The position numbers and the translations under genes were made by a program. A stretch of DNA of 64,000 bases from Planctomycetaceae bacterium (GTDB lineage: Bacteria > Planctomycetota > Planctomycetia > Pirellulales > Lacipirellulaceae): assembly GCA_002702655.1 (NCBI GenBank), contig PABB01000072.1, positions 1 through 64,000 of the forward strand, in the 5' to 3' direction. Positions 6,768 through 18,716 of the stretch are shown in pieces; the stretch's first letter is position 1; the number at the start of each line of letters is the position of its first letter. A model generated the notes under the pieces. That model was not told the origin of the DNA, searched no databases, and saw only the letters and a program-made list of their open reading frames with translations.

Positions 6768-6779
6768 CTCAAACGGACG

Positions 6780-6865
6780 GGCAAGCCAACGGGCGATGGC
6801 AGCTGCCTCGAAAGCAGTCGAGCGCCGAGCGCGCCTTGTGAGTTCGACTACCTCTCCTTCCGCTT
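6780..6865 (+). pseudogene. tRNA-like remnant
   Basis: Anticodon-like arm CTGC-CTCGAAA-GCAG and a T-loop-like GAGTTCGACTACCTC, but no acceptor pairing. Confidence 0.2.
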
Positions 6866-6868
6866 CAC

Positions 6869-6940
6869 GTGCCCTTGACCGAGCGGCCAAGGTGCCAGTC
6901 TTCCAAACTGGATAGGCGGGTTCGACTCCCGCAGGGCACT
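6869..6940 (+). tRNA. tRNA-Gly(TCC)
   Basis: Perfect acceptor GTGCCCT/AGGGCAC, anticodon stem CCAGT/ACTGG with loop CTTCCAA, T arm GCGGG-TTCGACT-CCCGC. Confidence 0.55.
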
Positions 6941-6949
6941 CTCAAGCTT

Positions 6950-7024
6950 TCCGGGGTCGTCGCTGTTGGTAGTGATGCCTGGCCTTGAACCAGGAGTCCG
7001 TAGGTTCGATTCCTACCCCCGGAA
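6950..7024 (+). tRNA. tRNA-Gln(TTG)-like with C33
   Basis: Perfect acceptor TCCGGGG/CCCCGGA, anticodon stem CCTGG/CCAGG with loop CCTTGAA, T arm GTAGG-TTCGATT-CCTAC. Confidence 0.45.
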
Positions 7025-7080
7025 CTCGCGAACCGTCCCCCACATGGGCTGGTCATGGTTCGACAACGCGAGGAGCTTCC

Positions 7081-7680
7081 ATGACCCAATTCCGTGAGAT
7101 ACGAGCCGATTTTGATCGCGACTCGATCGTCGTTTACCAGGCGTACCGTCCAGCCATCGCTGATGCAGCTTTGGAGGCCGGGCGATTCGTTGCTCCGTTC
7201 TCGTTCGGTCGTATGACTTGGATCAAGCCGTCGTTCCTATGGCTGATGGAGAGAAGCAATTGGGCCCGAAAGTCGGGCCAAGAGCGTATCTTGGCCATCC
7301 GCATAAAACGCAGCGGATGGGATTTGGCGTTAAGTGAGGCAGTGCTGACGTGTTTCGAGCCGAGGACTCATGGATCGATCGACCAATGGCGAGAGAAGTT
7401 TGACGAAGCCCACGTCCACGTGCAGTGGGATCCAGAGCGATCAATTCACGGGAAGAAGCTTGAGCATCGGTCGATTCAGGTCGCTATCGGCAGACAAGTG
7501 ATCAGCGAGTACGTGGAAGACTGGATTATCGAGCTAACGGACCTGACGCCACTTGCCAACAAAATCCGCCGACTGTGCGAGGAGGGCCACGCCGACCGAG
7601 GCAAGAGACTCCTCCCGTCGGAGAAACCATACGAGGTGTCGAATGAAACGGCTACACGACTGGCTATGACCGCCAGCTGA
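7081..7680 (+). CDS. DUF4291-like protein embedded in the tRNA array
   Basis: ATG at 7081 preceded by GAGGAG. The VYQAY and MTWIKPSFLWLM motifs match DUF4291 from memory. Stop TGA at 7678-7680, three nt before the next tRNA. Confidence 0.55.
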   Translation: MTQFREIRADFDRDSIVVYQAYRPAIADAALEAGRFVAPFSFGRMTWIKPSFLWLMERSNWARKSGQERILAIRIKRSGWDLALSEAVLTCFEPRTHGSIDQWREKFDEAHVHVQWDPERSIHGKKLEHRSIQVAIGRQVISEYVEDWIIELTDLTPLANKIRRLCEEGHADRGKRLLPSEKPYEVSNETATRLAMTAS

Positions 7681-7683
7681 CAC

Positions 7684-7754
7684 TGCGGGGTCGCGTAACG
7701 GCAGGACGGGGCGCTCTGAACGCCTTGGTGTTGGTTCGATTCCAGCCCCCGCAG
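7684..7754 (+). tRNA. tRNA-Gln(CTG)
   Basis: Perfect acceptor TGCGGGG/CCCCGCA, anticodon stem GGGCG/CGCCT with loop CTCTGAA, T arm GTTGG-TTCGATT-CCAGC. D arm irregular. Confidence 0.45.
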
Positions 7755-7759
7755 CTTAC

Positions 7760-7844
7760 GGAAGTCATCCGGCTGGATGAGGACGCTGTCTTGAAAACAG
7801 TTGGTCGCACCGGCGACTTGGGGATTCGAGTCCCTCGGCTTCCG
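7760..7844 (+). tRNA. tRNA-Ser(TGA), class II
   Basis: Acceptor GGAAGTC/GGCTTCC, anticodon stem GCTGT/ACAGT with loop CTTGAAA, long variable arm TGGTCGCACCGGCGACTT. T loop ATTCGAGT carries one extra nt. Confidence 0.55.
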
Positions 7845-7857
7845 CTCAACTCAACAC

Positions 7858-7930
7858 GGTCCTGTGGCCTAGCGGCAAAGGCAGCTTCCTTACAAGAAGA
7901 TGATCGGTGGTTCGAGTCCACCCAGGACTA
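7858..7930 (+). tRNA. tRNA-Val(TAC)
   Basis: Acceptor GGTCCTG/CAGGACT, D stem GCCT/AGGC, anticodon loop CTTACAA, T arm GGTGG-TTCGAGT-CCACC. Confidence 0.55.
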
Positions 7931-7940
7931 CTGGATAAGC

Positions 7941-7995
7941 GATGAACGATGAACGCGGAACTATGAACGGAGCGTTCAACGCTCATAGTTCATAG
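7941..7995 (+). other. AT-rich repeat/palindrome element between tRNAs
   Basis: Tandem GATGAAC GATGAAC is followed by nested inverted repeats CTATGAAC-GGAGCG-TTCAA-CGCTC-ATAGTTCATAG. Confidence 0.4.
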
Positions 7996-8010
7996 CTCGT
8001 TGTTCCAATT

Positions 8011-8085
8011 GTCCTCGTGGAGCAGCCTGGAGTGCTCGCCTGCCTGTCACGCAGGAGGACGCGGGTTCAAATCCCGCCGGGGACG
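8011..8085 (+). tRNA. tRNA-Asp(GTC)
   Basis: Acceptor GTCCTCG/CGGGGAC, D stem GAGC/GCTC, anticodon stem CCTGC/GCAGG with loop CTGTCAC, T arm GCGGG-TTCAAAT-CCCGC. Confidence 0.7.
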
Positions 8086-8167
8086 CTTTTGATGGCGGAT
8101 TGCGACATTCGCTATGTGCATGGATCTCAATCGGTTGTCGATTCGTGACTCGCATGCCAATAGGAAA

Positions 8168-8244
8168 GGCACGGTACGCAAACAGGAAAAGCGACGAAGC
8201 TCAAACCTTCGTGACGTTTGCGGGTTCGACTCCCGCCCGTGCTA
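8168..8244 (+). tRNA. tRNA-like with Leu anticodon CAA but class-I-like architecture
   Basis: Acceptor GGCACGG/CCGTGCT, 3-bp D stem CGC/GCG with an 11-nt loop, perfect anticodon stem CGAAG/CTTCG with loop CTCAAAC, 8-nt variable loop, T arm GCGGG-TTCGACT-CCCGC. Confidence 0.4.
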
Positions 8245-8259
8245 CTGACCGAGACACAT

Positions 8260-8358
8260 GCGTCGGCTGGGCACTGGCGAGCCGCAGTATTATTTGGAAA
8301 CGCGGGGCTGTAACCCACCCGCTTCCGAGCTATGCAGGTTCAACTCCTGCCCGGCGCA
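8260..8358 (+). tRNA. 99-nt tRNA-Tyr(GTA)-like with an AT-rich insertion
   Basis: Acceptor GCGTCGG/CCGGCGC pairs, T arm GCAGG-TTCAACT-CCTGC is perfect, and the Tyr-type loop CTGTAAC is present. A 17-nt AT-rich insert AGTATTATTTGGAAACG and an irregular anticodon stem disrupt the fold. Confidence 0.35.
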
Positions 8359-8368
8359 CTGACAACAC

Positions 8369-8439
8369 GGCCCGTTGGTCTAGCGGCAGGATGCGAGACC
8401 CTCAATCTCGCGGCGCGGGTTCGATTCCCGTACGGGCTA
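8369..8439 (+). tRNA. tRNA-Glu(CTC) with C33
   Basis: Acceptor GGCCCGT/ACGGGCT, anticodon stem CGAGA/TCTCG with loop CCCTCAA, T arm GCGGG-TTCGATT-CCCGT. Confidence 0.5.
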
Positions 8440-8446
8440 CTGATGC

Positions 8447-8549
8447 AGCCAAGTGGTGGAATAGGCGGGCACCAACCGTAGGTTGGTCGGCGCGACACTC
8501 AGAATGTCGTGCCACTTGTGGCGTGGGAGTTCGACTCTCCCCTTGGCTA
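8447..8549 (+). tRNA. tRNA-Leu(CAG), class II, with a 17-nt hairpin inserted in the D region
   Basis: Perfect acceptor AGCCAAG/CTTGGCT, anticodon arm CGACA-CTCAGAA-TGTCG, variable arm TGCCACTTGTGGCGT, T arm GGGAG-TTCGACT-CTCCC. An extra hairpin ACCAA-CCGTAGG-TTGGT sits between the D region and the anticodon stem. Confidence 0.45.
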
Positions 8550-8558
8550 CTGATTGAT

Positions 8559-8625
8559 GCGGGTGAGCCAGGCTCAGCCGGGCCTCATAAGCCCGGACCG
8601 TCGGGTGCGACTCCCGGACCCGCTA
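8559..8625 (+). pseudogene. degenerate tRNA-Met(CAT)-like
   Basis: Anticodon arm CCGGGC-CTCATAA-GCCCGG. T-loop TGCGACT, with G in place of the conserved U55. No room for a D arm. Confidence 0.3.
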
Positions 8626-8628
8626 CTA

Positions 8629-8677
8629 GCAACTGAGGCCGCCGAGCGATAGCGAGGATGAAGGCCGAAGGCGGTAG
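8629..8677 (+). repeat. 49-nt repeat family copy R2
   Basis: GCAACTGAGGCCGCCGAGCGATAGCGAGGATGAAGGCCGAAGGCGGTAG, 45/49 identical to R1. Confidence 0.6.
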
Positions 8678-8710
8678 CTCACCAAGAACTGCCGCGCAGC
8701 GACGATTGAT

Positions 8711-8786
8711 GACTGGGTACGCAAACTGGAAAAGCGACCAGGTCGAGAGCCTGGTGATTCTGTGGGTTCGACTCCCACCCTAGTCA
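8711..8786 (+). tRNA. tRNA-like with Leu anticodon GAG, class-I-like, paralogue of 8168-8244
   Basis: Acceptor GACTGGG/CCTAGTC, 3-bp D stem CGC/GCG with an 11-nt loop, anticodon stem CCAGG/CCTGG with loop TCGAGAG (C33), 7-nt variable loop, T arm GTGGG-TTCGACT-CCCAC. Confidence 0.4.
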
Positions 8787-8798
8787 CTTCGTGACAAA

Positions 8799-8847
8799 CT
8801 ACCGCCCTGCGCATACATGCCTTTTGGGCATGTATGCTCGGTTGCTC
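8799..8847 (+). ncRNA. conserved-flank hairpin element, copy B
   Basis: Same flanks as copy A. Perfect 11-bp hairpin GCATACATGCC-TTTTG-GGCATGTATGC. Confidence 0.4.
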
Positions 8848-8852
8848 TGAAT

Positions 8853-8925
8853 GATCCCGTGGTCCAACGGCAACGACGCCTGGGTGACAACCAGGAGAGC
8901 GATGGTTCGACTCCATCCGGGATCA
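8853..8925 (+). tRNA. tRNA-Val(GAC)
   Basis: Perfect acceptor GATCCCG/CGGGATC, anticodon stem CCTGG/CCAGG with loop GTGACAA, T arm GATGG-TTCGACT-CCATC. Confidence 0.6.
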
Positions 8926-8929
8926 CTTT

Positions 8930-9055
8930 GGTCTGTAAGTGTTGCGGCCGCACAAGCAAGGGCCGCCGCCGAGCAGTGCGCAGGAAGGAGGCTGGCCCGC
9001 GGTAGCAGAAAACACATAAGGACGAGGGCCGGGTTCAATTCCCGGACACGGACCT
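8930..9055 (+). other. 126-nt tRNA-like element with acceptor and T arm but a roughly 50-nt internal insertion (repeat copy R3)
   Basis: Acceptor GGTCTGT/ACGGACC pairs and T arm CCGGG-TTCAATT-CCCGG is intact. The interior carries the palindrome TTGCGGCCGCAA and an R-family repeat at 8955-9004. Confidence 0.3.
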
Positions 9056-9119
9056 TCAACCGAGCACGCTTGCCCAGAAGGCAAGCGAGCGCAGGGCGAA
9101 AGCAACTGACGAAAATCGC

Positions 9120-9192
9120 GGGCTGGCATGTTCCAAGGGGGCGACTGACTCTTGCAAGGTCGGTGCGAAGGGTTCGATTCCCTTCCGGTCCA
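9120..9192 (+). tRNA. tRNA-Ala(TGC)-like
   Basis: Acceptor GGGCTGG/CCGGTCC with 2 GU pairs, anticodon stem TGACT/GGTCG with loop CTTGCAA, T arm AAGGG-TTCGATT-CCCTT. D stem poor. Confidence 0.4.
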
Positions 9193-9202
9193 CTCACGAC
9201 GA

Positions 9203-9273
9203 GGGCTCATGGTCCAACGGGACGACACCGGCTCGGCAGGTCGGAGATCTGGGTTCGATTCCCAGTGGGTCCA
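9203..9273 (+). tRNA. tRNA-Ala(GGC)-like with C33
   Basis: Acceptor GGGCTCA/TGGGTCC, anticodon stem CCGGC/GTCGG with loop TCGGCAG, T arm CTGGG-TTCGATT-CCCAG. Confidence 0.45.
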
Positions 9274-9277
9274 CTCA

Positions 9278-9568
9278 TCAATCAGGCCAGATGCCGGCGT
9301 CAACGGCGGCTTGGCGATTGTGACCGCAGTCGACTTTGGCGCCATCTATCAGGACTTCAGGATAGTCACCCCGTTCAACATACAGTTGAGTATTGCCATC
9401 AGTCTCAACCATAGCGAACCAAGGCCCTTGATCTGTGTCAGAAACCATCGTTGAAGCGACAAGTTTTTCCTTGGGAAGCATGGTGTAGTCTTCGCCCCAG
9501 GGCTCGATCCATACGATGTGAGGACGAGGACGATCGTTGTAGATCTCGATTGAGGAGACTCGCTGCAT
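9278..9568 (-). CDS. hypothetical small protein (low-GC cargo ORF inside the array)
   Basis: ORF sits in a roughly 50% GC stretch between tRNAs. Start chosen at MQRVSS. No clear SD. Confidence 0.2.
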   Translation of the reverse strand: MQRVSSIEIYNDRPRPHIVWIEPWGEDYTMLPKEKLVASTMVSDTDQGPWFAMVETDGNTQLYVERGDYPEVLIDGAKVDCGHNRQAAVDAGIWPD

Positions 9569-9589
9569 GGCACCAGGATAGCGACTTCG

Positions 9590-9700
9590 AAACACGGAAG
9601 GTAGCCGGATACGGCTCGCCGGGCCAGTTTGCTCGGGCCGTGCGACTCCACAAGGGTCATGTGGGATCAAATCGGGCACCGACGCGCAGCGTTGGTCTAC
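9590..9700 (+). pseudogene. degenerate tRNA-like remnants
   Basis: TGCGACTCC T-loop variant and ATCAAAT loop fragments without a complete cloverleaf. Confidence 0.2.
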
Positions 9701-9729
9701 CTTCCGCTCGCGTTGATCGAATACGACAC

Positions 9730-9801
9730 AGCTCGATGGTGAAACGGACATCATGTCTCGCTTCTAACGAGAGGTTCCAGGTTCGAATCCTGGTCGAGCT
9801 G
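9730..9801 (+). tRNA. tRNA-Arg(TCT)
   Basis: Perfect acceptor AGCTCGA/TCGAGCT, D stem GTGA/TCAT, anticodon stem TCTCG/CGAGA with loop CTTCTAA, T arm CCAGG-TTCGAAT-CCTGG. Confidence 0.65.
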
Positions 9802-9812
9802 CTGAAGAGTAA

Positions 9813-9897
9813 GGAAGGGCAACCCGATTGGCGACGGGACCCGGTTGGAAGCCGGTTGAGCTTCATGGCCTTGAGGGTTCGACTCCCTCTCCTTCCG
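9813..9897 (+). tRNA. tRNA-Ser(GGA), class II
   Basis: Acceptor GGAAGGG/TCCTTCC, anticodon stem CCGG/CCGG with loop TTGGAAG, roughly 15-nt variable arm, T arm GAGGG-TTCGACT-CCCTC. Confidence 0.5.
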
Positions 9898-10519
9898 CTG
9901 GTTTGGTACGACCCTTTCCTGAGCGACTGTGGAAAACACGGAATGGGACAGATGCTACCAAAGAAATCCCAACAGAGATTAACCATATCAATAGCCAGGT
10001 ATGCCACCCGGAGTCCAGGAATCGCCCCCAATAGTCGATAACGCCGTGCTCACGCGACCAGCTTGCATCAGCAATGATGAGCGATGCAGTCACACAACTT
10101 GCCGCCCAACAGCCCAGGAACAACCACCACCCGGACGCCAGAACGCAGATCGCTAGAGGAAGTAGCAAGTTCAAAAGGCAACCAACGACCCAGCCGCCAA
10201 ATCCAAAACCGCGTATGAAAGGGCCAGCCCAATATACGGCCGAGGTCGCAACCAGGAATGCAACTACCGTCGAAACCGACTTTCCAGTCTCCGTTCCTGC
10301 AAACAGCTTTCTCTTGAAACTAACCGATCGAGGATGACACAAGATAGCAATCGCGAGTGCCGGCACAAACCCGATTGCAGAAAACACTGCCGCGATCCAA
10401 GGCGCGTCAGCAACACCTCCCCGAATCCATGACATCGCCACTGAAGTAAACAACCCAAATGCCGCTGCGCACAAGACCGCTTCCGAAGGAGAAAACGACT
10501 TTTGGTTCGAGTTGGCCAT
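9863..10519 (-). CDS. hypothetical multi-pass membrane protein (low-GC cargo ORF)
   Basis: 5-6 predicted TM helices. Roughly 50% GC, against above 60% for the surroundings. The ATG at 10517-10519 is preferred over the upstream TTG. The 3-prime 35 nt overlap tRNA-Ser on the opposite strand. Confidence 0.35.
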   Translation of the reverse strand: MANSNQKSFSPSEAVLCAAAFGLFTSVAMSWIRGGVADAPWIAAVFSAIGFVPALAIAILCHPRSVSFKRKLFAGTETGKSVSTVVAFLVATSAVYWAGPFIRGFGFGGWVVGCLLNLLLPLAICVLASGWWLFLGCWAASCVTASLIIADASWSREHGVIDYWGRFLDSGWHTWLLIWLISVGISLVASVPFRVFHSRSGKGRTKPAEGEGVEPSRP

Positions 10520-10551
10520 GAATCGCAAGTTACCACACAAATGAAGTCTGT

Positions 10552-10617
10552 GGTGTACACGGTACGCACGCCTGCCTGTGAAGCAGGAGGTACGGGTTCG
10601 ATTCCCGTCGGATACCC
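10552..10617 (+). pseudogene. tRNA-His(GTG)-like, degenerate
   Basis: Anticodon arm CCTGC-CTGTGAA-GCAGG and T arm ACGGG-TTCGATT-CCCGT, but a truncated D arm and a poorly pairing acceptor. Confidence 0.35.
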
Positions 10618-10622
10618 CTTAT

Positions 10623-10692
10623 GCGAGTGTGCTCCTGGGAGAGCAGTCAGCCTCCAAAACTGACGAACAGGGTTCGAATCCTTGCGCTCGTG
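10623..10692 (+). tRNA. tRNA-Trp(CCA)
   Basis: Acceptor GCGAGTG/CGCTCGT with 2 GU pairs. Anticodon loop CTCCAAA is closed by GTCAG/CTGAC plus a C.A pair. T arm CAGGG-TTCGAAT-CCTTG. Confidence 0.5.
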
Positions 10693-10696
10693 CTTT

Positions 10697-10784
10697 GCCG
10701 ACGTGGCCGAATAGCTAGGCGCCGGTTTTGCCCCGTCCCTAGATAAAGCAGCGGTTGATGCTGGTGCGACTCCAGTCGTCGACC
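10697..10784 (+). pseudogene. class-II-like tRNA-like with G55 T-loop variant
   Basis: Acceptor GCCGACG/CGTCGAC pairs 6/7. T arm GCTGG-TGCGACT-CCAGT. Anticodon region ambiguous. Confidence 0.3.
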
Positions 10785-10788
10785 CTAC

Positions 10789-10852
10789 ATCTCGATGGTG
10801 TAACGGACCGCACGGGGCTCTCCAAGTCCTGGTTCGATTCCAGGTCGAGATG
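10789..10852 (+). pseudogene. truncated tRNA-like, 64 nt
   Basis: Perfect acceptor ATCTCGA/TCGAGAT, D arm and T arm intact, CTCCAAG loop, but the 3-prime half of the anticodon stem and the variable loop are missing. Confidence 0.3.
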
Positions 10853-10860
10853 CTGCGAAC

Positions 10861-10932
10861 AGCCCGTGAGTGTGCCGGATAGCATGTCAGCTTCCGAAGC
10901 TGTTGGACCAGGTTCGATTCCTGGACGGGCTA
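10861..10932 (+). tRNA. tRNA-Arg(CCG)
   Basis: Perfect acceptor AGCCCGT/ACGGGCT, anticodon stem CAGC/GCTG with loop TTCCGAA, T arm CCAGG-TTCGATT-CCTGG. Confidence 0.6.
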
Positions 10933-10936
10933 CTAC

Positions 10937-11009
10937 GCCTTGCGAGTGTGACGGACGAGCACGGCAGACTTCGAATCTGCAAGACGGGGTTCGATTCCCT
11001 GGCGAGGTA
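10937..11009 (+). tRNA. tRNA-Arg(TCG)
   Basis: Acceptor GCCTTGC/GCGAGGT, D stem GTGT/GCAC, perfect anticodon stem GCAGA/TCTGC with loop CTTCGAA, T arm CGGGG-TTCGATT-CCCTG. Confidence 0.65.
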
Positions 11010-11013
11010 CTTC

Positions 11014-11084
11014 AGCCTGTGAGTGTGTTGGATGCACGCGACCGTGCGAAGGTCGTAGGCCAGGTTCGATTCCTGGACGGGCTG
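11014..11084 (+). tRNA. tRNA-Arg(GCG)
   Basis: Acceptor AGCCTGT/ACGGGCT, D stem GTGT/GCAC, perfect anticodon stem CGACC/GGTCG with loop GTGCGAA, T arm CCAGG-TTCGATT-CCTGG. Confidence 0.6.
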
Positions 11085-11091
11085 CTAATTT

Positions 11092-11162
11092 GACGCTGGA
11101 GCCAGATGGCCAGGCAGCCGGCTGCAACCCGGCCAAAGTGGGTTCGACTCCCACCGGCGTCT
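11092..11162 (+). tRNA. tRNA-Cys(GCA)
   Basis: Acceptor GACGCTG/CGGCGTC, perfect anticodon stem GCCGG/CCGGC with loop CTGCAAC, T arm GTGGG-TTCGACT-CCCAC. Confidence 0.6.
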
Positions 11163-11274
11163 CTTTGTAAGCGAGGTTTTGAAAGCGCTGGGCCAGCGGC
11201 GCCCTCGGCCCCTTTCACCAGGTTGGCCGGGTGTGTTCCGTGGATGGATTGTTACGAAGGCGCGCGAGACCGCC

Positions 11275-11348
11275 ACAAGGTTAGCTCAGTTGGTTAGAGC
11301 ACCAGGCTGTTAACCTGGCTGTCACGGGTTCGACTCCCGTACCACACC
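11275..11348 (+). tRNA. tRNA-Asn(GTT) with canonical body but non-pairing acceptor stem
   Basis: Canonical D arm TAGCTCAGTTGGTTAGAGC, anticodon arm CCAGG-CTGTTAA-CCTGG and T arm ACGGG-TTCGACT-CCCGT. The 5-prime acceptor ACAAGGT pairs with the 3-prime ACCACAC over only 3 of 7 positions. The 9-bp direct repeat abuts its 5-prime end. Confidence 0.5.
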
Positions 11349-11807: not shown

Positions 11808-12914
11808 ATGTTGTTTTTCAAGAAGGTGAAGATCAAGAGTTACGAGGTCGGCCTGTACTTCCGTGACGGCGAGTTCAAGCGATTGCTGACCACCGGTCGA
11901 CACTGGTTGTTCGATCCGCTGTGGAAGGTCCGCGTCGACGTCGTGTCGCAGCGTGATCCGTGGCTGGTCCACGACAAGCTGGACGTGATCGTCAAGAGCG
12001 GCGCCCTGACGGGTCTGGCCAAGGTCGTCGACCTCAAGGACCACGAGCGGGCGCTCGTGTGGATCGAGGGCCGCTTCAGCCATGTTCTGCCGCCGGGACT
12101 GTACGCCTACTGGACCGGCTTCAAGGACGTGCGGGTCGCGGTGATCAACGCCCGTGAAGTTCGGCTGCAGCATGCGGACTTCAAGGCGATCGTCCGTTCG
12201 CCGCACGCTGCGCAGGTGCTCGACATCTGCACGGTCGAGCGGAACCACGTGGGCGTTGCCTTCGTCGACGGCGAGTACGTCGAGACGCTCACCCCGGGCC
12301 AGTACGCCTGGTGGCGTGGCGTCGCCGACGCGAAGGTGGTCGAGGTCGACCTACGCGAGCAGGCCTTGGACGTGGCGGGTCAGGAAATCATGACCGCCGA
12401 TAAGGTCACGCTCCGCATGAACGCCTTGGTCAACTACCGCGTGACCGACGCTCGCAAGGCTGTGATGGTCAGCGACGGCGCGACGCAGTCGCTGTACCGC
12501 GAGGCTCAGCTGGCGTTGCGTGCCGTGGTTGGGATTCGCGACTTGGACTCGTTCCTGACGGACAAGGACGCCGTCGCCAGCGAGTTCGCGGAGCAGGTCA
12601 GCCGACGGGCGGGTGAGTTGGGTCTGGAAGTGGTTTCGGTAGGTGTCCGCGACGTCATCTTGCCGGGCGACATGAAGGACCTGATGAACAAGGTCACCGA
12701 GGCCAAGAAGGCCGCCGAGGCGAACCTGATCTCGCGACGCGAGGAGACGGCGGCCATGCGTAGCCAGGCGAACACCGCCAAGCTGCTCGCCGACAACCCG
12801 ACGCTGATGCGTCTCCGGGAACTGGAGGTCCTGGAGAAGGTCGCCACGAGCGGCAAGCTCAACGTCGTCTTGGGCGAGAAGGGCCTCGCCGATCGCGTGG
12901 TCAACCTGTTGTAG
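11808..12914 (+). CDS. SPFH/band 7 domain protein (stomatin/slipin-like)
   Basis: ATG at 11808 preceded by AAGGAGG. SPFH core with a C-terminal coiled coil. Followed by a strong terminator. Confidence 0.8.
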   Translation: MLFFKKVKIKSYEVGLYFRDGEFKRLLTTGRHWLFDPLWKVRVDVVSQRDPWLVHDKLDVIVKSGALTGLAKVVDLKDHERALVWIEGRFSHVLPPGLYAYWTGFKDVRVAVINAREVRLQHADFKAIVRSPHAAQVLDICTVERNHVGVAFVDGEYVETLTPGQYAWWRGVADAKVVEVDLREQALDVAGQEIMTADKVTLRMNALVNYRVTDARKAVMVSDGATQSLYREAQLALRAVVGIRDLDSFLTDKDAVASEFAEQVSRRAGELGLEVVSVGVRDVILPGDMKDLMNKVTEAKKAAEANLISRREETAAMRSQANTAKLLADNPTLMRLRELEVLEKVATSGKLNVVLGEKGLADRVVNLL

Positions 12915-13347: not shown

Positions 13348-14529
13348 ATGGTTCAAAAGATCCACGTCAACGTCGGCACGATCGGTCACATCGACCACGG
13401 GAAGACGACGCTTACCACCGCGAACTTGCGCGTGCAGTCCGGGCGCGGCCTGGCCGAGTATAAGTCCTACGCCGAGGTCGCCAAGGGCGGCGTCACCCGC
13501 GACAAGAACAAGACCGTCACGGTCATCACTTCGCACGTGCAGTACGAGACGGAGTCGCGCAGCTACGCGCACGTCGACTGCCCGGGCCACGCGGACTACA
13601 TCAAGAACATGATCACCGGCGCCGCCCAGATGGACGGGGCCGTGCTCTTGGTGTCGGCCGTGGACGGCCCGATGCCGCAGACGCGGGAGCATATCCTGCT
13701 GGCGCGGCAGGTCGGCGTGCCTCACCTGGTCGTCTTCATGAACAAGTGCGACCTGGTCGAGGACCCGGAGTTGCTCGACCTCGTGGAGCTGGAGATGCGC
13801 GAGATGCTCACGCACTACGGGTTCCCAGGAGAGGACGTTCCGTTCGTGCGGGGCTCCGCGCTCTTGGCGCACGACAACCCGGCGGACGCGGAGTCGAGTC
13901 GTTGCATCGGCGAGTTGCTGGACGCGCTCGACACGTACGTGCCTGCCCCCAAGCGGGCGGTCGACAAGCCGTTCCGGATGTCGATCGAGAACGTGTTCTC
14001 GATCGAGGGGCGGGGCACCGTTGTGACCGGCGTGGTCGATCAAGGCCGGATCGCTCCCGGCGACTCGGTCGACATCGTCGGCCTGGCGGACCAGCCGCGG
14101 ACGGTCGTGTGCACGCAGCTCAAGACGTTTCAGGACGTCTTGGAGTCCGCCGAGGCGGGCGACAACGTCGGTTGTTTGCTCCGTGGCGTCGGCCGCGATG
14201 AGGTCGAGCGCGGGCAGGTGATTGTCGCTCCCGGATCGCTCGCGCCGCACACACGGTTCGAGTCGGAGGTGTACGTGCTCGACCAAGGAGAGGGCGTCCG
14301 GCACACGCCGTTCATAAACGGTTACACGCCGCAGTTCTTCTTCCGCACGACGGACGTGACCGGAGAGGTGAGCCTGCTGGGAGGCGCCGAGGTCGCGATG
14401 CCGGGCGACGGCATCAAGCTCGGTGTCCGGCTGCAGAAGCCAATCGCCCTGGATGCTGGCTCGCGTTTCGCGATCCGCGAAGGGAACCGCACGGTTGGTT
14501 CCGGTGTCGTGACGTGTATTATTGAGTAG
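13348..14529 (+). CDS. tuf: elongation factor Tu paralogue with a divergent switch I
   Basis: 393 aa with G1 [24 protein letters not shown] and the EF-Tu C-terminal [10 protein letters not shown]. The switch I/effector region is [15 protein letters not shown] where canonical EF-Tu has [19 protein letters not shown] SD. Not in a str/S10 ribosomal context. Confidence 0.85.
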
Positions 14530-14589: not shown

Positions 14590-15150
14590 ATGGCCAACGA
14601 GCGCATTTACCTCGCCCTCGGCGATAGTATGAGCATTGATGACTACACCGGCGTGAAGGGCGGCGGTGCGGTCAATCAGTTCTTTCGCTCCTTGGGCAGC
14701 GACTGGTCGCTCGACGACCGTACGTTTGACGGTTGTCAGATGGCCGGTGTCCCGAGAGACGGGGTCGGCGATATCGTCACGCTGACTATCGGCGGCAATG
14801 ACCTGTTGTGGAACAAAGAAGAGTACCTCCGTGAAGGAGTTGCCGACTTCGCGGCGGAGCATCTCGCCCTGCTGCGGGCGCTCCGGAAGCAGAACCCGAC
14901 CTCGCTGCTGATCGTGGGAGACATCTACGGCCCCGCAGCGCCCCTTACGGACGCCGAGGCGCATGGTCTGGCGCACGCGAATCAAGCGATCCACGAGAAC
15001 TGCCGCGAGGTGGGGGCCCGACTCGCCACGATTCACGAGGCATTCCAGGGCCGCGAAGATTCGCTGTTGTGTCTTGGAATCGAGCCGACTCTTAAAGGGG
15101 CTGAAGTGATTGCAGGGCTGTTTGCGGATGCAATGACACGCGAGCGGTAG
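14590..15150 (+). CDS. SGNH/GDSL hydrolase family protein
   Basis: GDSMS block I and GGNDL block III. GGAGAG SD. Confidence 0.75.
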   Translation: MANERIYLALGDSMSIDDYTGVKGGGAVNQFFRSLGSDWSLDDRTFDGCQMAGVPRDGVGDIVTLTIGGNDLLWNKEEYLREGVADFAAEHLALLRALRKQNPTSLLIVGDIYGPAAPLTDAEAHGLAHANQAIHENCREVGARLATIHEAFQGREDSLLCLGIEPTLKGAEVIAGLFADAMTRER

Positions 15151-15199: not shown

Positions 15200-16833
15200 A
15201 TCAGTAGCAACGTGGCGTCGTGAGGTTGAAGAGCCTTCGGTCCAGGTTGGTTTGGTTCGCTGTCATAAACGTTTGAAGCATGTTTCGGCCACCCGGTTCG
15301 CTTCTCACCGCCCCACCAGCGCTTCGGCGGGACCGGGACAACCGTTCCTCGCAGCGGCAGCACGCGGTCGTGCAGCTTCTCCATCTCGTAGTTGATCGTC
15401 TCGTCGCTCATCCGCAGGCTCATCTCCGTCATGCTGATGAACGGGCCTTCCTCCGCCTCACGCGGGTGACGGGCCTCCCATTCCCGGACCTTCTCGTGCG
15501 CCTCCCGCGAGTGCGTCGTCATCAGCGCCGAACGGCACTCGGACGTCTGCTCGTGGTCATCGCTCGCGTCCAGAGCGCCGGCCAGCTCCGCGCGGCCCCA
15601 GGGCTGGTCGACGATCGCCAGCGCCGCCGCAGCCGTGATGCGGTTGCAGGGAATCTCTGAACGCAGCGCCCGCCGAAACGTCTCTACCGCGATGTCGGGA
15701 AAGAACTCCAGCGCCAGCAGCGCAGCGTCTCCCAGGCAGTTCGACTCGATGCGGCGGAGCGTCTGCTTGATCCCCGAGGAGCGTCCCCGCCGCAGCAGGT
15801 ACTCGGCGCAGGCGCGCCACACGTACGGCTGCGGGATCTCCCCGTTGGCGTTGATGCGGTTGATCAGCGCCTCGACCTCGTCGGTCCAGTCAGAATCGAT
15901 CTGGGCGAGCACTTCTAGCGCCGCGGAAGTCTCGCCCGAGGGCGGGCCCGCCAGGCACCGGCGGAGCACCCCTTCGAGCCGGTCGCTGCCGAGCGCCCGC
16001 AGCGCGTGCAGCGACTCCGCCCGGTCGACCCCGGCGTCGAAGTCGGATTCGAGGGCCGCCGCCCTCTCCGCCACGTGCTCACTGTGCAAACGCTCCGCCG
16101 TCGCCGAGTCGTCCCCCTCGACCAGCGACGCGACACAACCCCAGTCCCCGAGCGCCGCCCCCAGGCAGCAGCGGACCTCGGCGCTGCCCCAGCGCTCTTC
16201 AATCCGCGCGAGCAACTCGGCGATCGCTTCATGCTGAAAACCAACCCGAACGCCGCTGCTCTCCTCGAACGTCTCGAGCAGGCCCGCGTCCTTGAGCCGC
16301 CTCATCGCCAGCCGGACCGCGGCCCCGCGGGGGTGCAGCGCCTTGACCCGCTCCTCGACAAACGCCGGCGCCTTCAGCGACTCGAGATACCATACAAAGA
16401 AGTACGGGTCGGTCCAGTCGCAGGAGTCGTCGTAGAAGTCGACGTCGATGGCCTCGCCGCTTTGCCGGTGGGTGAGGCAGCAGCCCCGGCCGTGGAAATA
16501 GTACTCCCAGTCATCATCCCCGGGCACTACTCCTCGCCCCGGCCGATCCGGGTGGCCGGCGTATCCAGATGTCGCCAGGGCCTGAAGGCTGCCGCCAAGT
16601 CGAGCGACCACCGTGTCGGCGACGAACTGCTGGCGTTCCCGGTGCCGCACCAAGCAGAGCAGTGTCCAGGCCTCCCACGGAGAGATGGGCAGCGGCGCAC
16701 TGAGCCAGCGCCGCCAGAGACCAGGGTGGTCAACGTCATCGGCGATGGATCTGAGTCGCTCGGTCAGTGCTCTTATAGTTTTTTCCAACCTACTGACGCC
16801 CTGTAATCTCCGGCCTTCATCGGCCACTCCCAT
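15200..16833 (-). CDS. hypothetical protein (N-terminal third of a 1223-aa ORF)
   Basis: The first roughly 500 aa have protein-like composition (W/F/Y/D/E-rich). The remainder of the ORF is antisense to the GDSL and EF-Tu genes and is regarded as spurious read-through. There is no in-frame stop, so the C-terminal boundary is unknown. Confidence 0.3.
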
Positions 16834-17155
16834 ATACTGGCGATGACAGCAATTCTAAACGCTCTCCCGGTTCTTGCGAACCTTTCGTGGCACGCCGCGG
16901 TCTGTCTGGCGGTAAATGTTCCAAGCTGATCTGGAGGACAGACTCGTGTACGCCCAACTCTCCACTCTTGCCCCGCTGAGCCCGCGCTGCTGCTAGGCTC
17001 GGCCGCTGCGCCTTTCGTGGCGTCGGTTCGGTCTGCCTTCGCGGGCTCCTCTTGCCGCTGATTGTTCTTGATCAGTTCGGCCGGCGCGGTGTTGCGCCGG
17101 TGCTTCTTAATCAGGCAAGGGTCCCAAGCTGGGGCCACGTACCACGAGGATGGCT

Positions 17156-17590
17156 ATGGCGCTTGATAAGCGTACGCGCGAGCAGATGCTCGCAATGTGT
17201 GGAGAGATCCACGAGGACGACGGGGTCGACCCCCGCGAATTCTTCAAGTCGGGACGTGGTCCCCGCAAGCAAGACCACAAAGCGCGGCAGCTCTGCCGCC
17301 AGGCGGCGGCGACCTTGGACCAGGTACTCTCTGGAGAGACGGGCGACGATCGACTGGCCTGCCTGCGGGTCGTCTCGGTGCAGCCAGCACCGGACGCATC
17401 GCGGCTGCTGGTCACAGTTGTGGCGACCTGCGCTGCAGTGGACTTCTGTCGAGATGCGACAGCAGCCCACCTGCAAGGGTCCGCAGGGCGATTGAGGACC
17501 GCGGTCGCGGCGGCGATCACGCGTCGCAAGGCGCCGACGCTGGCGTTCGTCTTGCTCGGCCCCGATGGAGAGGAGGCCCAACATGGTTGA
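17156..17590 (+). CDS. hypothetical small protein, translationally coupled to rtcB
   Basis: ORF ends 7 nt into the rtcB start region and has plausible composition. No recognised domain. Confidence 0.4.
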   Translation: MALDKRTREQMLAMCGEIHEDDGVDPREFFKSGRGPRKQDHKARQLCRQAAATLDQVLSGETGDDRLACLRVVSVQPAPDASRLLVTVVATCAAVDFCRDATAAHLQGSAGRLRTAVAAAITRRKAPTLAFVLLGPDGEEAQHG

Positions 17591-18716
17591 GCCACAACTC
17601 GCGGAACTGCAAACCTGGCTCACCGAACCGCTGACGTCGGCCGTCGCGGAGTCCGTATCAAGACTCCGCGCGGCCGAGGGCGTGAAGAAGGTTTGCCTGA
17701 TGCCCGACGTGCACCTCGCTGCAGAGGTGTGCGTCGGCGCTGTGGTCGCTACCGAGGGCGCCCTCTACCCACAAGCGGTTGGAGGCGACATAGGTTGTGG
17801 CATGGCGGCGCTGCGTTTCGACCTCGAAGCCGAAGCGCTTAGCAACGAGCGGCCGGCCGGCGCCGTGCTGGCCGCCCTGTACCGGTCTGTGCCCAGCAAC
17901 AAGCACCGCCAGGCGGTCCCTCTCCCTGAGGCGTTACGCCCCGCCGATCTGAGCGAGCAGACACTGGCTAAGCTCGCCACGCGTGACGGCGCTGTGCAAC
18001 TCGGAACGCTCGGTCGCGGCAACCATTTTCTGGAGTTCCAAGTAGACGAAGCCGGGCAGCTGTGGGTGATGCTGCACAGCGGCTCGCGGGCGATGGGGCA
18101 GGCGATCACCGCTCTCCATGTATCAAACGGAGAGCCAAACCGTTTCGGGCTCCGCGGCCTCGACGCCGAAACCCATCTCGGCGCCGCCTATCTTAAGGAC
18201 GTGGCTTGGGCGAGGAAGTACGCCACGGAGAACCGGTTGGCGATGCTGCGGGCGGTTGAAGAGCTCATGTCTCGGCTCTTCCGAGCCGACGCGGACTGGA
18301 AATCACTCATCCACGCCGACCACAACCACGTGCAGAGAGAGGCTTACGGCGGGCGGAGCTATTTCGTCCACCGCAAAGGCGCTCAATCCGCGGCGGACGG
18401 CGAATCCGGCGTCGTTCCCGGTTCGATGGGCGCCGCCAGTTTCCACACCGTCGGCCGAGGCTGCGCAGCGTCACTCTCGTCCTGTTCCCACGGGGCCGGA
18501 AGGCGCATGAGCCGGACAGAAGCCCGCCAAGAGATCACCAGTAAGTCGTTCCAGCGGCAAGTTGGCGGGCTCTGGTACGATCACCGCCGCGTCGATCGCC
18601 TGCGAGACGAGTCGCCCGGCGCCTACAAGAACATCCGTGAGGTGATGCGCGCCCAGCGCGAGCTCGTCAAAATCGTCCGCAAACTCCGGCCCCTGCTGAG
18701 CTACAAGGGCGTCTAA
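17583..18716 (+). CDS. rtcB: RtcB-family RNA ligase (3-prime-phosphate/5-prime-OH)
   Basis: PDVHLA, GGDIGCGM, GRGNHFLE, HADHNH and SHGAGR motifs. GGAGGAGG SD before the ATG at 17583. Short, about 378 aa form. Confidence 0.85.
   Translation: MVEPQLAELQTWLTEPLTSAVAESVSRLRAAEGVKKVCLMPDVHLAAEVCVGAVVATEGALYPQAVGGDIGCGMAALRFDLEAEALSNERPAGAVLAALYRSVPSNKHRQAVPLPEALRPADLSEQTLAKLATRDGAVQLGTLGRGNHFLEFQVDEAGQLWVMLHSGSRAMGQAITALHVSNGEPNRFGLRGLDAETHLGAAYLKDVAWARKYATENRLAMLRAVEELMSRLFRADADWKSLIHADHNHVQREAYGGRSYFVHRKGAQSAADGESGVVPGSMGAASFHTVGRGCAASLSSCSHGAGRRMSRTEARQEITSKSFQRQVGGLWYDHRRVDRLRDESPGAYKNIREVMRAQRELVKIVRKLRPLLSYKGV

What the first reader, a model, noticed from the sequence alone, without database searches (positions are those of the whole stretch)
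13348..14529. Divergent EF-Tu paralogue outside a ribosomal operon, 2 kb downstream of the tRNA array
The protein has every EF-Tu hallmark, but the switch I/effector loop is rewritten: [26 protein letters not shown] stands where [24 protein letters not shown] is expected. The gene sits between an SPFH gene and a GDSL hydrolase, not in a fusA-tuf or tRNA-tuf-secE context. Specialised EF-Tu paralogues that serve structurally aberrant tRNAs are established for nematode mitochondria. By analogy, this copy could be adapted to the noncanonical array tRNAs (weak D or T stems, insertions, the G55 T-loop variant). This is a hypothesis only.
Basis: partly seen in the sequence, partly recalled or inferred. 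Interest (0 to 1): 0.75.

Follow-up and report, generated by a model that had tools for sequence, protein, structure and literature searches.

The report
Spare EF-Tu tied to tRNA array
This is a divergent extra-type copy of the protein that carries charged tRNAs to the ribosome, inherited in planctomycete bacteria together with about 30 extra tRNA genes and RNA-repair genes as a mobile "spare translation kit"; the odd switch I loop that first drew attention is simply normal for this phylum.

Summary
The ORF at 13348-14529 is a real, intact EF-Tu that scores above the NCBIfam equivalog cut-off. The "rewritten" switch I (AKGGxxRDxxKTVT) does not mark a paralogue. It is the standard planctomycete form, present in the tuf that occupies the classical tRNA-tuf-tRNA-Trp/secE-nusG slot ("type 1").

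The gene does belong to a separate, well-supported clade ("type 2", 97% bootstrap). This clade is never found in the operon, is under strong purifying selection, and has a remodelled aminoacyl-tRNA pocket and often a shortened N-terminus.

In at least five independent loci, type 2 or its relative L129 sits directly beside a collinear long tRNA array. It also recurs with an orthologous 368-aa SPFH/Band-7 gene, a tRNA-like RNA, Ro60, and an RbfA-RtcB pair. One locus adds HNH and an integrase.

Huge-phage contigs also embed N-terminally shortened EF-Tus in tRNA arrays, with parallel pocket changes.

Best reading: the elongation-factor arm of a mobile backup and repair kit for translation.

The array tRNAs are mostly canonical, so the nematode-style "aberrant tRNA" analogy is weak. 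Co-residence with a type-1 tuf in one genome was not shown directly.

The parts
5486..11163 (+). Long tRNA array (L-array): 29 tRNA genes, all on the + strand, none encoding CCA. It lacks Thr, Tyr and Met.
   Evidence: ARAGORN and Rfam. The gene order is collinear with the arrays directly upstream of type-2 tuf in L086 and L198. Mean tRNA identity to L198 and L086 is 74-76%.
11279..11343 (+). tRNA-like RNA about 465 nt upstream of SPFH. It has an Asn-like GTT anticodon loop and a canonical T arm, lacks a proper acceptor stem, and is followed by a conserved 3' hairpin. [quoted passage not shown]
   Evidence: Rfam tRNA hit of 54.8 bits covering model positions 5-66; ARAGORN does not call it. Homologous elements lie at the same distance from SPFH in L196, L129, L198 and L086. 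The b7a-tRNA concept is taken from bioRxiv 10.1101/312249.
11808..12914 (+). SPFH/Band-7 protein, 368 aa.
   Evidence: Pfam Band_7, 6e-30. Orthologues at 68-87% identity lie next to type-2 tuf in L196, L082, L129, L198 and L086, and a remnant lies in L001.
13348..14529 (+). tuf2: type-2 EF-Tu, 393 aa. The GTPase motifs are intact. The N-terminus is 6 residues shorter than in type 1 and lacks the KPH motif. Substitutions (E. coli numbering): D216N, R230V, T254V, G257Q, E259K, R327T, Y331F, N355G, G380N.
   Evidence: The type-2 clade has 97% bootstrap support. dN/dS is 0.05-0.2.
14590..15150 (+). GDSL-family hydrolase. It is a local neighbour and is not conserved in the other islands.
   Evidence: Pfam Lipase_GDSL_2, 35 bits. 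No homologue was found in the other type-2 loci.
15240..16833 (-). DUF6896-containing gene. It is not conserved in the other islands and, together with GDSL, is probably an insertion between tuf2 and rbfA-rtcB.
   Evidence: Pfam DUF6896. The GC3 frame plot indicates coding on the - strand from about 15250 to 16700. It is absent from the other loci.
17150..17590 (+). RbfA-like protein (ribosome-binding factor A family).
   Evidence: Pfam RBFA, E=4e-7, just below the gathering score. It is 75% identical to the RbfA gene that directly follows tuf2 in L197.
17565..18716 (+). RtcB RNA ligase.
   Evidence: Pfam RtcB, 2e-82. PHROG 'tRNA splicing ligase'. It is 68% identical to the RtcB that follows RbfA after tuf2 in L197.

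Best explanation
tuf2 encodes a functional EF-Tu of an accessory planctomycete lineage, here called type 2. It travels with a horizontally mobile island. The island combines a long tRNA array, an SPFH/Band-7 scaffold with its tRNA-like RNA, sometimes Ro60, and an RbfA-RtcB pair. The proposed role is the elongation-factor arm of a self-contained backup and repair kit for translation. When housekeeping tRNAs or EF-Tu are cleaved, modified or inhibited by toxins, phage conflict or translation-targeting compounds, the island would supply fresh tRNAs, an RNA ligase with scaffolds to repair damaged RNA, and its own aa-tRNA carrier. That carrier has a remodelled aminoacyl/acceptor-end pocket, which should make it behave differently from the housekeeping factor. 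What is shown: the gene is an intact EF-Tu; it belongs to a distinct clade; it lies outside the operon; it is under purifying selection; its synteny with arrays and repair genes is conserved; and huge-phage EF-Tus in arrays show parallel changes. What is inferred: that a type-1 tuf co-exists in the same genome; that the island genes are co-expressed under stress; and what the pocket changes do biochemically.
For: The protein is an intact EF-Tu with complete G motifs, T61 and H84. Type 1 sits in the classical slot or operon, whereas none of 14 type-2 or L129 loci does. Type 2 is monophyletic at 97% bootstrap and unites Gimesia (Planctomycetales) with Pirellulales members, which conflicts with the operon-resident type-1 genes of the same orders. 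dN/dS is 0.05-0.2. Collinear arrays lie directly upstream of tuf in the window, L086/L087, L198, L196 (array tail at a contig end) and L129. The orthologous SPFH gene is present in 7 loci. The tRNA-like element upstream of SPFH is conserved in 5 loci. Ro60 is present in L086 and L197, and RbfA-RtcB follows tuf2 in L197 and, after an insertion, in the window. Signs of mobility include an HNH gene inside the arrays of L086 and L198, an integrase in L198, IS elements or transposases in L082 and L085, and defence genes beside the window island. tRNA identity tracks tuf2 identity across islands. At least 18 IMG/VR contigs, mostly 80-620 kb, embed an EF-Tu in a tRNA array; these proteins have a shortened N-terminus and D216G/F218H, E259Q, Y331F and R333G. 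Literature: L-arrays spread horizontally, occur in Planctomycetes, are induced by translational stress in Anabaena, and neighbour HNH, RtcB and translation genes (PMC8421152). Band-7 with b7a-tRNA, and Ro60 with Y RNA, are predicted RtcB cofactors (10.1101/312249).
Against: Five type-2 loci (L083, L084 in Gimesia, L085, L088, L089) have no array within 10 kb, so the linkage is frequent but not obligatory, and tuf2 evidently persists without the array. No expression data exist. No PADLOC defence model matches tuf2, SPFH or RtcB. A terminator-like hairpin lies between SPFH and tuf2, so co-transcription is not assured. The tree is a simple NJ tree, and the relationship of type 2 to L129 and to the phage clade is unresolved at 23-51% support.
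Confidence: 0.55

Rival explanations
1. One reading: tuf2 is structurally adapted to carry non-canonical array tRNAs that the housekeeping EF-Tu binds poorly, as in nematode mitochondria.
For: The physical linkage of tuf2 to arrays is conserved. Type-2-specific changes include R327T and Y331F on the domain-3 strand that carries the T-stem-contacting Q329. A few array tRNAs are odd: Phe has an A53-G61 mismatch that is conserved in L086, the Glu(ttc) and Ile(gat) T stems pair only 3/5, and there is an 88-nt tRNA with a G55 T loop.
Against: Twenty-four of the 29 window array tRNAs have full acceptor and T stems, canonical TTCRANY T loops and normal identity-type discriminator bases. tuf2 has no C-terminal or other extension; it is 393 aa and colinear with E. 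coli EF-Tu. The switch I argument fails. tuf2 persists in loci without arrays.
Confidence: 0.12
2. tuf2 is primarily an inhibitor-insensitive EF-Tu, a resistance determinant against small molecules or protein toxins that bind the aa-tRNA site. This would be analogous to Streptomyces EF-Tu3. On this view its array neighbourhood is just a shared island.
For: G257 is replaced by Q or S in type 2. R230 is replaced by V, K, L or A, and R333 by G in some members. From my own knowledge, not verified here, G257S confers GE2270A resistance and R230C, R333C and T334A confer pulvomycin resistance in E. coli. Both drugs block aa-tRNA binding at overlapping sites (PMC7136475). Atkinson 2015 describes stress-specific, antibiotic-resistant actEF-Tu.
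Against: No biosynthetic cluster is nearby. The kirromycin-site residues L120, Q124, Y160, G316, Q329, A375 and E378 are unchanged. The same positions also contact the aa-tRNA 3' end, so changes there need not reflect drugs. Phage EF-Tus share several of the changes.
Confidence: 0.15
3. tuf2 has a non-canonical RNA-repair or rescue role. It would bind a tRNA mimic (the b7a-like RNA or a Y RNA tRNA-like domain) or damaged or repaired tRNAs, and hand them to RtcB, Ro60, SPFH or the ribosome. Ordinary elongation would not be its main function.
For: It is tightly adjacent to Band-7 plus a tRNA-like RNA, to Ro60 and to RbfA-RtcB. Acidic pocket residues are lost (D216N, and E259K in the query subclade). 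There is a precedent in EF-Tu binding the tRNA-like domain of tmRNA (10.1101/312249).
Against: All elements needed for ribosome-dependent GTPase activity and aa-tRNA binding are retained, with strong purifying selection over the whole length. No Y RNA was detected by Rfam. There is no direct evidence.
Confidence: 0.1
4. tuf2 is not a paralogue at all. It is the only, relocated and fast-evolving housekeeping tuf of these genomes.
For: Co-residence with type 1 was never demonstrated. No Gimesia type-1 protein appeared in the top 120 hits of two searches. Codon bias is high, with GC3 of 0.89. The Gimesia locus is surrounded by housekeeping genes.
Against: Type 1 occupies the operon in every planctomycete order sampled, including Pirellulales-type sequences. 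The type-2 clade cuts across orders. It sits in variable, mobile-looking contexts that differ even between 85-94% identical copies. The window array lacks Thr, Tyr and Met tRNAs, so the genome must hold other tRNA loci.
Confidence: 0.08

Closest known systems
Streptomyces EF-Tu3 / 'actEF-Tu' (tuf3)
   Same: It is a divergent second EF-Tu outside the ribosomal operon. It is dispensable, stress-linked and insensitive to EF-Tu inhibitors, and it is the only EF-Tu-like subfamily singled out in Atkinson's trGTPase survey (PMC4342817).
   Different: It is a different lineage. tuf2 nests among planctomycete EF-Tus. actEF-Tu is not reported next to tRNA arrays or RNA-repair genes. The kirromycin-site residues of tuf2 are unchanged.
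Nematode mitochondrial EF-Tu1 / EF-Tu2
   Same: They are specialised EF-Tu paralogues matched to a particular tRNA set (my own knowledge).
   Different: Those proteins carry C-terminal extensions and serve T-armless or D-armless tRNAs. tuf2 has no extension, and its linked tRNAs are cloverleaf-canonical.
Long tRNA arrays (L-arrays), e.g. the Anabaena trn operon
   Same: The window array has 29 co-oriented, non-periodic tRNA genes. HNH, RtcB and translation or RNA-processing genes lie nearby. Distribution is patchy and horizontal, and Planctomycetes are listed among the phyla with L-arrays (PMC8421152).
   Different: That work does not mention an EF-Tu, SPFH or Ro60 partner. Here a dedicated EF-Tu clade co-diverges with the array.
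Band-7/b7a-tRNA-RtcB and Ro60-Y RNA-RtcB RNA-repair systems (Burroughs & Aravind 2016, as cited in bioRxiv 10.1101/312249)
   Same: A Band-7 protein with an adjacent tRNA-like RNA, plus Ro60 and RtcB in the same neighbourhoods.
   Different: As far as I could read, an EF-Tu and a full tRNA array are not described components. The original paper could not be opened.
Huge-phage translation modules (IMG/VR contigs L096-L113)
   Same: An EF-Tu gene is embedded in arrays of 12-43 tRNAs. The N-terminus is shortened, and D216, E259, Y331 and R333 are altered. One phage group has the planctomycete AKGG switch I.
   Different: The phage proteins form a separate clade with 100% bootstrap support. Their relation to type 2 is unresolved. 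They are viral, not chromosomal, and no SPFH or Ro60 linkage was examined.
Engineered EF-Sep / EF-pY
   Same: They carry neutralising substitutions of the pocket aspartate (D217G, with F219Y or F219G). These resemble the natural D216N in type 2 and D216G+F218H in L129, L090 and the phage copies (PMC6386890).
   Different: They are laboratory variants selected for phospho-amino acids. Nothing shows that the natural proteins carry unusual amino acids.

Membership tests
Bacterial EF-Tu (NCBIfam TIGR00485 equivalog) | Whole-protein score above the curated cut-off, and all three EF-Tu domains | tested here: met
   569.4 bits against a cut-off of 522.4. Pfam GTP_EFTU, GTP_EFTU_D2 and GTP_EFTU_D3 all match.
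Bacterial EF-Tu (NCBIfam TIGR00485 equivalog) | Intact P-loop, switch I Thr61, switch II DCPGH with His84, and NKxD | tested here: met
   Alignment to E. coli EF-Tu.
Bacterial EF-Tu (NCBIfam TIGR00485 equivalog) | GTP-dependent aa-tRNA delivery to the ribosome | not testable with these tools
   This needs biochemistry.
Planctomycete housekeeping tuf ('type 1') | Location in the tRNA-Thr-Tyr-Gly-Thr / tuf / tRNA-Trp-(rpmG-secE-nusG) slot | tested here: not met
   The window gene lies between SPFH and GDSL. Type 1 occupies the slot in L004-L008, L016, L115, L117 and L120.
Planctomycete housekeeping tuf ('type 1') | Sequence signature MAKExFxRxKPHVNVG ... GGTVRDxTKTVTIAVSHVEYE, with D216, G257, R327, Y331 and N355 | tested here: not met
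   The query has [31 protein letters not shown], and N216, Q257, T327, F331 and G355.
Planctomycete AKGG-type switch I (phylum signature) | AKGGxxRDxxKTVT replacing D(N/K)APEEKxRGIT | tested here: met
   It is shared by type 1, type 2 and one phage group. It is therefore not specific to the paralogue.
Nematode-mitochondrial-type specialised EF-Tu | A C-terminal extension that binds arm-less tRNAs | tested here: not met
   The protein is 393 aa and ends in line with E. coli EF-Tu.
Nematode-mitochondrial-type specialised EF-Tu | Partner tRNAs that lack a T arm or a D arm | tested here: not met
   The array tRNAs are cloverleaf-shaped with 5/5 T stems in 26 of 29.
actEF-Tu / Streptomyces EF-Tu3 | Phylogenetic membership in the actinomycete EF-Tu-like clade | tested here: not met
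   All of the closest homologues are Planctomycetota, and type 2 nests among the planctomycete EF-Tus.
actEF-Tu / Streptomyces EF-Tu3 | A second, non-operon copy alongside a canonical tuf | tested here: inconclusive
   The non-operon location is shown. Co-residence with a canonical tuf is not shown.
L-array island (Santamaria-Gomez et al. 2021) | A long, co-oriented, non-periodic array of more than 20 tRNA genes | tested here: met
   29 tRNAs on the + strand at 5486-11163.
L-array island (Santamaria-Gomez et al. 2021) | Patchy or horizontal distribution, with HNH, RtcB or translation genes nearby | tested here: met
   RtcB lies at 17565-18716. HNH genes lie inside the homologous arrays of L086 and L198, and L198 has an integrase. 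The flanks differ between loci. There is no HNH gene in the window itself.
L-array island (Santamaria-Gomez et al. 2021) | The tRNAs are supernumerary to a housekeeping set | not testable with these tools
   The whole genome is not available. The array lacks Thr, Tyr and Met tRNAs, so other tRNA loci must exist.
Band-7/b7a-tRNA-RtcB RNA-repair system | A Band-7 protein with an adjacent tRNA-like non-coding RNA | tested here: met
   SPFH lies at 11808-12914 and the tRNA-like element at 11279-11343. The pair is conserved in 5 loci.
Band-7/b7a-tRNA-RtcB RNA-repair system | An RtcB ligase in the same neighbourhood | tested here: met
   RtcB lies 4.6 kb downstream of SPFH. In L197, RbfA-RtcB directly follow tuf2.
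SelB | Score above the curated cut-off, and a C-terminal SECIS-binding domain | tested here: not met
   158 bits against a cut-off of 242, and no extra domain.

The most novel reading that the evidence does not exclude
Type-2 EF-Tu and the huge-phage EF-Tus may represent a natural class of array-dedicated elongation factors. On this reading, their neutralised aminoacyl pocket (D216N or D216G, F218H, E259K or E259Q, G257Q) and shortened N-terminus create a partly orthogonal, attack-proof elongation channel. Such a channel would keep working with tRNA or aminoacyl species, or in the presence of toxins or inhibitors, that disable the housekeeping EF-Tu. The whole tRNA + EF-Tu + repair package would move horizontally between cells and viruses.
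Probability: 0.2. Interest if true: 0.85.

Novelty: new variant of a known kind. Interest (0 to 1): 0.62.

Why it matters
Long tRNA arrays are widespread, mobile and poorly understood. Divergent EF-Tu paralogues are known from only a few cases. If a dedicated EF-Tu lineage co-evolves with such arrays and with RtcB, Ro60 and Band-7 repair modules, and huge phages have arrived at the same arrangement with parallel pocket changes, then these islands are more than spare tRNAs. They would be portable elongation and repair modules for conflicts over the translation machinery. The idea is directly testable: purify EF-Tu1 and EF-Tu2 and compare their aa-tRNA binding and inhibitor sensitivity. It also offers natural pocket variants of interest for genetic-code engineering. 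Finally, it records a caution for annotation: the unusual switch I is a planctomycete-wide trait and is not a marker of specialisation.

Tried and rejected
1. I scanned genome contigs with the whole protein to find the source genome and a second tuf. The scan did yield useful type-1 loci.

2. I scanned metagenome contigs with a type-2-specific fragment alignment. One of the two patterns was again generic, and only L129 was a new island.

3. I used two further homologue searches, with the L004 and Maioricimonas type-1 proteins, hoping to find a type-1 protein on the same chromosome as a type-2 protein. No contig-length match appeared and no Gimesia type 1 was listed. This neither proves nor disproves co-residence.

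4. The exact-sequence look-up of the query found nothing on record.

5. PLSDB plasmids and INPHARED phages gave only generic EF-Tu hits of 60% identity or less.

6. PADLOC found no defence model for tuf2, SPFH, RbfA-like or RtcB.

7. Rfam found no Y RNA near Ro60, only tRNAs.

8. Burroughs & Aravind 2016 (PMC5062991) is not held, so I could not check whether they already noted an EF-Tu. Searches for EF-Tu together with tRNA arrays or RNA repair found no such description.

9. I rejected switch I as the specialising feature.

10. I rejected the idea that the window is a phage genome. The remainder is chromosomal: a polysaccharide cluster, a Na+/H+ exchanger and similar genes.

11. I did not run structure prediction, because 60-70% identity to solved EF-Tu structures makes the fold certain and model coordinates are not returned.
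Full report
**The observation**

An in-frame stop and an AAGGAG ribosome-binding site lie just upstream of the ATG, so the short N-terminus ([10 protein letters not shown]...) is genuine. The protein scores 569 bits on the NCBIfam EF-Tu equivalog model, against a cut-off of 522. It has all three Pfam EF-Tu domains, and its E-values against solved EF-Tu structures are about 1e-160. The neighbours are an SPFH/Band_7 gene at 11808-12914 and a small GDSL hydrolase at 14590-15150. A 29-gene tRNA array at 5486-11163 ends 2.2 kb upstream. The quoted switch I peptide is present.

**The switch I argument fails**

The closest 120 database homologues are all Planctomycetota, including Lacipirellulaceae, Aeoliella, Pirellulaceae, Anammoximicrobium, Mariniblastus and Gimesia. 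Of these, 117 carry the same AKGGxxRDxxKTVT switch I. The same form is found in tuf genes that occupy the classical tRNA-Thr-Tyr-Gly-Thr / tuf / tRNA-Trp slot. This holds in Planctomycetaceae, Phycisphaerae, Isosphaeraceae and Gemmataceae loci. It also holds in a complete tuf-rpmG-secE-nusG-rplKAJL-rpoB operon. The form is therefore a phylum-level signature of housekeeping EF-Tu. It keeps the Mg-coordinating Thr61. Other phyla have further non-canonical switch I versions.

**The gene is nevertheless a distinct lineage**

Clustering and an NJ tree separate two groups.

- **Type 1** is 398-399 aa, starts MAKExFxRxKPHVNVG, carries GGTVRDxTKTVTIAVSHVEYE, and includes every operon-resident gene.
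- **Type 2** includes the query.

Type 2 has 97% bootstrap support, and the query's subclade has 100%. Type 2 joins Gimesia (Planctomycetales) with Pirellulales members, while type-1 sequences from the same orders sit in the operon. That pattern fits a paralogous or horizontally spread gene and does not fit a vertically inherited orthologue.

None of the 14 type-2 or L129 loci examined is in the canonical context. Contexts differ even between copies that are 85-94% identical. Pairwise dN/dS is 0.05-0.2, so the protein is under strong purifying selection.

I could not show directly that one genome holds both types. The collection scans were swamped by generic motifs, and the capped searches did not return a matching pair.

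**What distinguishes type 2 from type 1**

In E. coli numbering, the substitutions specific to type 2 are A/T33R, T42I, I102V, V104L, L178H, D216N, T254V, G257Q/S, R327T, Y331F and N355G. The KPH proline is also lost. The query subclade adds R230V, E259K and G380N, and has lost six N-terminal residues.

D216 lines the amino-acid side-chain pocket. Engineered EF-Sep and EF-pY carry D217G with F219Y or F219G to accept charged or bulky residues (PMC6386890).

Three further statements rest on my own knowledge and were not verified here:

- E259 stacks on A76 of the aa-tRNA.
- G257S gives GE2270A resistance.
- R230C, R333C and T334A give pulvomycin resistance.

Both drugs block aa-tRNA binding at overlapping sites (PMC7136475). 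The kirromycin-site residues are unchanged. So the changes concentrate on the acceptor-end and aminoacyl site and on a domain-3 strand, and not on switch I.

**The array linkage is real and conserved**

| Locus | tuf2 identity to query | Arrangement |
|---|---|---|
| L086 (and L087) | 71% | 23 collinear tRNAs directly upstream, then Ro60/TROVE, two more tRNA genes, then an SPFH gene 68% identical to the window's |
| L198 | about 70% | 37-tRNA array in the same order as the window's, an HNH gene inside it, tuf2, a tRNA-like gene, the 368-aa SPFH gene, an integrase |
| L196 | 84% | Array tail (Arg-Arg-Cys) at a contig end, tRNA-like element, SPFH, tuf2, then RlaP, Tpt1, Macro and NUDIX repair genes |
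| L129 | sister form | 11 or more tRNAs, SPFH (73% identical to the window's), then a short-N-terminus EF-Tu |
| L197 | 81% | Ro60, tuf2, RbfA, RtcB |

The RbfA and RtcB of L197 are 75% and 68% identical to the window's RbfA-like/RtcB pair at 17150-18716. In the window that pair is separated from tuf2 by the non-conserved GDSL and DUF6896 genes.

The orthologous SPFH gene occurs in seven loci, including a degraded remnant in L001. Array tRNA identity tracks tuf2 identity. For L086 against L198 the figures are 87% for tRNAs and 88% for tuf2. For the window against L198 they are 74% and about 70%. This indicates co-inheritance. Five loci, including Gimesia, have tuf2 without an array within 10 kb, so the association is frequent but not obligatory.

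**The RNA-repair connection**

About 450 nt upstream of SPFH there is a conserved tRNA-like element. In the window it lies at 11279-11343; Rfam detects it and ARAGORN does not. It has an Asn-like anticodon loop and a canonical T arm, lacks a proper acceptor stem, and is followed by a 3' hairpin. This matches the predicted "band-7-associated tRNA". Together with Ro60 and Y RNA, that RNA has been proposed as a cofactor of RtcB-based RNA repair (Burroughs & Aravind 2016, as cited in bioRxiv 10.1101/312249).

L-arrays are reported to spread horizontally, to occur in Planctomycetes, and to be induced by translational stress in Anabaena. They neighbour HNH, RtcB and translation or RNA-processing genes (PMC8421152). 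That paper does not mention an EF-Tu, SPFH or Ro60 partner. Atkinson's trGTPase survey recognises only the actinomycete actEF-Tu as a distinct EF-Tu-like subfamily. Beside the window island lie McrBC and a PDC-S37/Hhe-like helicase-nuclease. The rest of the window is ordinary chromosome.

**Parallels in huge phages**

At least 18 IMG/VR contigs, most of them 80-620 kb, carry an EF-Tu embedded in arrays of 12-43 tRNAs. These proteins form their own clade with 100% bootstrap support. One subgroup has the planctomycete AKGG switch I. Almost all have lost the N-terminal AKEKFERTKP segment. Many carry D216G+F218H, E259Q, Y331F and R333G, and L129 and L090 share D216G+F218H. Whether this reflects common descent with type 2 or convergence is unresolved, with 23-51% support.

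**Are the array tRNAs aberrant?**

Mostly they are not. Twenty-four of the 29 have 7/7 acceptor pairs and 5/5 T-stem pairs, TTCRANY T loops and appropriate discriminator bases. The exceptions are:

- Phe, with an A53-G61 mismatch that is conserved in L086
- Glu(ttc) and Ile(gat), with weak T stems
- His, with only 5/7 acceptor pairs
- an 88-nt tRNA-like gene with a G55 T loop

tuf2 has no extension comparable to those of nematode mitochondrial EF-Tu1 and EF-Tu2. The analogy to those proteins is therefore weak, even though the link to the array is sound.

**Conclusion**

The most likely reading (confidence about 0.55) is that tuf2 is the elongation-factor component of a mobile backup and repair kit for translation. 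Three sub-mechanisms remain open: an EF-Tu insensitive to inhibitors or toxins, an EF-Tu tuned to the array's tRNAs, or an RNA-repair cofactor. That it is the genome's only tuf is unlikely (about 0.08) but not excluded. As far as the accessible literature shows, an EF-Tu clade co-evolving with L-arrays and Band-7/Ro60/RtcB modules has not been described. I rate it a new variant of known kinds.

Noticed in passing
window 5486-11163; L086 5538-9756; L129 201-2172: None of the array tRNAs encodes CCA. The discriminator base is followed by 'CT' in 26 of 29 (window), 18 of 25 (L086) and 9 of 11 (L129) tRNAs. In the housekeeping tRNAs that flank type-1 tuf, the trailer is variable. This may be a shared 3'-processing signal.
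   Followed up: partly
window 10697-10785 (+): ARAGORN calls an 88-nt 'tRNA-Gln(ttg)' with a TGCGACT T loop (G55) and the acceptor stem GCCGACG/CGTCGAC. It sits right after the array tRNA-Trp. L129 has a tRNA-Thr(cgt) in the same position with the same acceptor stem and a G55 T loop, and L198 has a tRNA-Thr(tgt) there. The window copy probably carries an insertion.
   Followed up: partly
window 13162-16833 (-): The DUF6896 gene's reading frame has no stop codon until 13162. It therefore runs antisense through GDSL and the whole of tuf2, giving a 1223-aa ORF. GC3 supports coding only from about 15250 to 16700. This could be a lost stop codon, a pseudogene, or a high-GC antisense artefact.
   Followed up: partly
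window 18818-21981 (-), 23745-25028 (+), 25025-30538 (+): A defence cluster lies beside the island. It consists of McrC and McrB, an M48/M78-like peptidase, and a 1837-aa DUF4011-AAA_11/12-MTES_1575 nuclease-WGR protein that matches PADLOC PDC-S37 (706 bits) and Hhe.
   Followed up: partly
window 7025-7684, 9274-9730, 9898-10544: There are three gaps in the tRNA array. The last gap holds a 225-aa ORF on the - strand (9863-10540) that looks like a membrane protein and has no family hit. In L086 and L198 the gene within the array is an HNH endonuclease, positioned between His and Trp. The window has no HNH homologue.
   Followed up: partly
L096-L113 (IMG/VR contigs of 80-620 kb): Huge-phage contigs carry an EF-Tu inside arrays of 12-43 tRNAs. 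Group A (L096-L102, L105) has the planctomycete AKGGTVRD switch I, which suggests planctomycete hosts. L090 and L095 place an EF-Tu inside arrays made almost entirely of Leu, Ser, Tyr and Phe tRNAs.
   Followed up: partly
L003, L007, L009, L014, L031, L134-L153: Other non-canonical switch I families exist outside Planctomycetes. Examples are AKADAKMFRRDxTKILTV (Aminicenantes and Bipolaricaulota), AKASESQGRRDxTKILTI, and an AKGG form in an Elusimicrobia MAG. Some of these sit in canonical tRNA-flanked slots.
   Followed up: no
L196 4751-14660; L197 19556-21182; L083 16177-21182: NAD/ADP-ribose-linked RNA-repair genes recur a few kb from type-2 tuf in three loci. They include Tpt1/PTS_2-RNA, Macro, NUDIX, ADP-ribosylglycohydrolase, RlaP, NAPRTase and nucleoside deoxyribosyltransferase genes.
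   Followed up: no
window 5407-5437 (+) and 13166-13180 (+): A strong terminator-like hairpin with a 13-bp stem and a T run lies just before the first array tRNA. A weaker one lies between SPFH and tuf2, which suggests that tuf2 may have its own transcription start.
   Followed up: no
window 265-1671 (-), 37185-38297 (-): A PRiA4_ORF3-like (plasmid pRiA4b ORF-3) protein lies upstream of the array, and an rve_3 integrase/transposase lies about 20 kb downstream. Either could mark the edge of a larger variable region.
   Followed up: no
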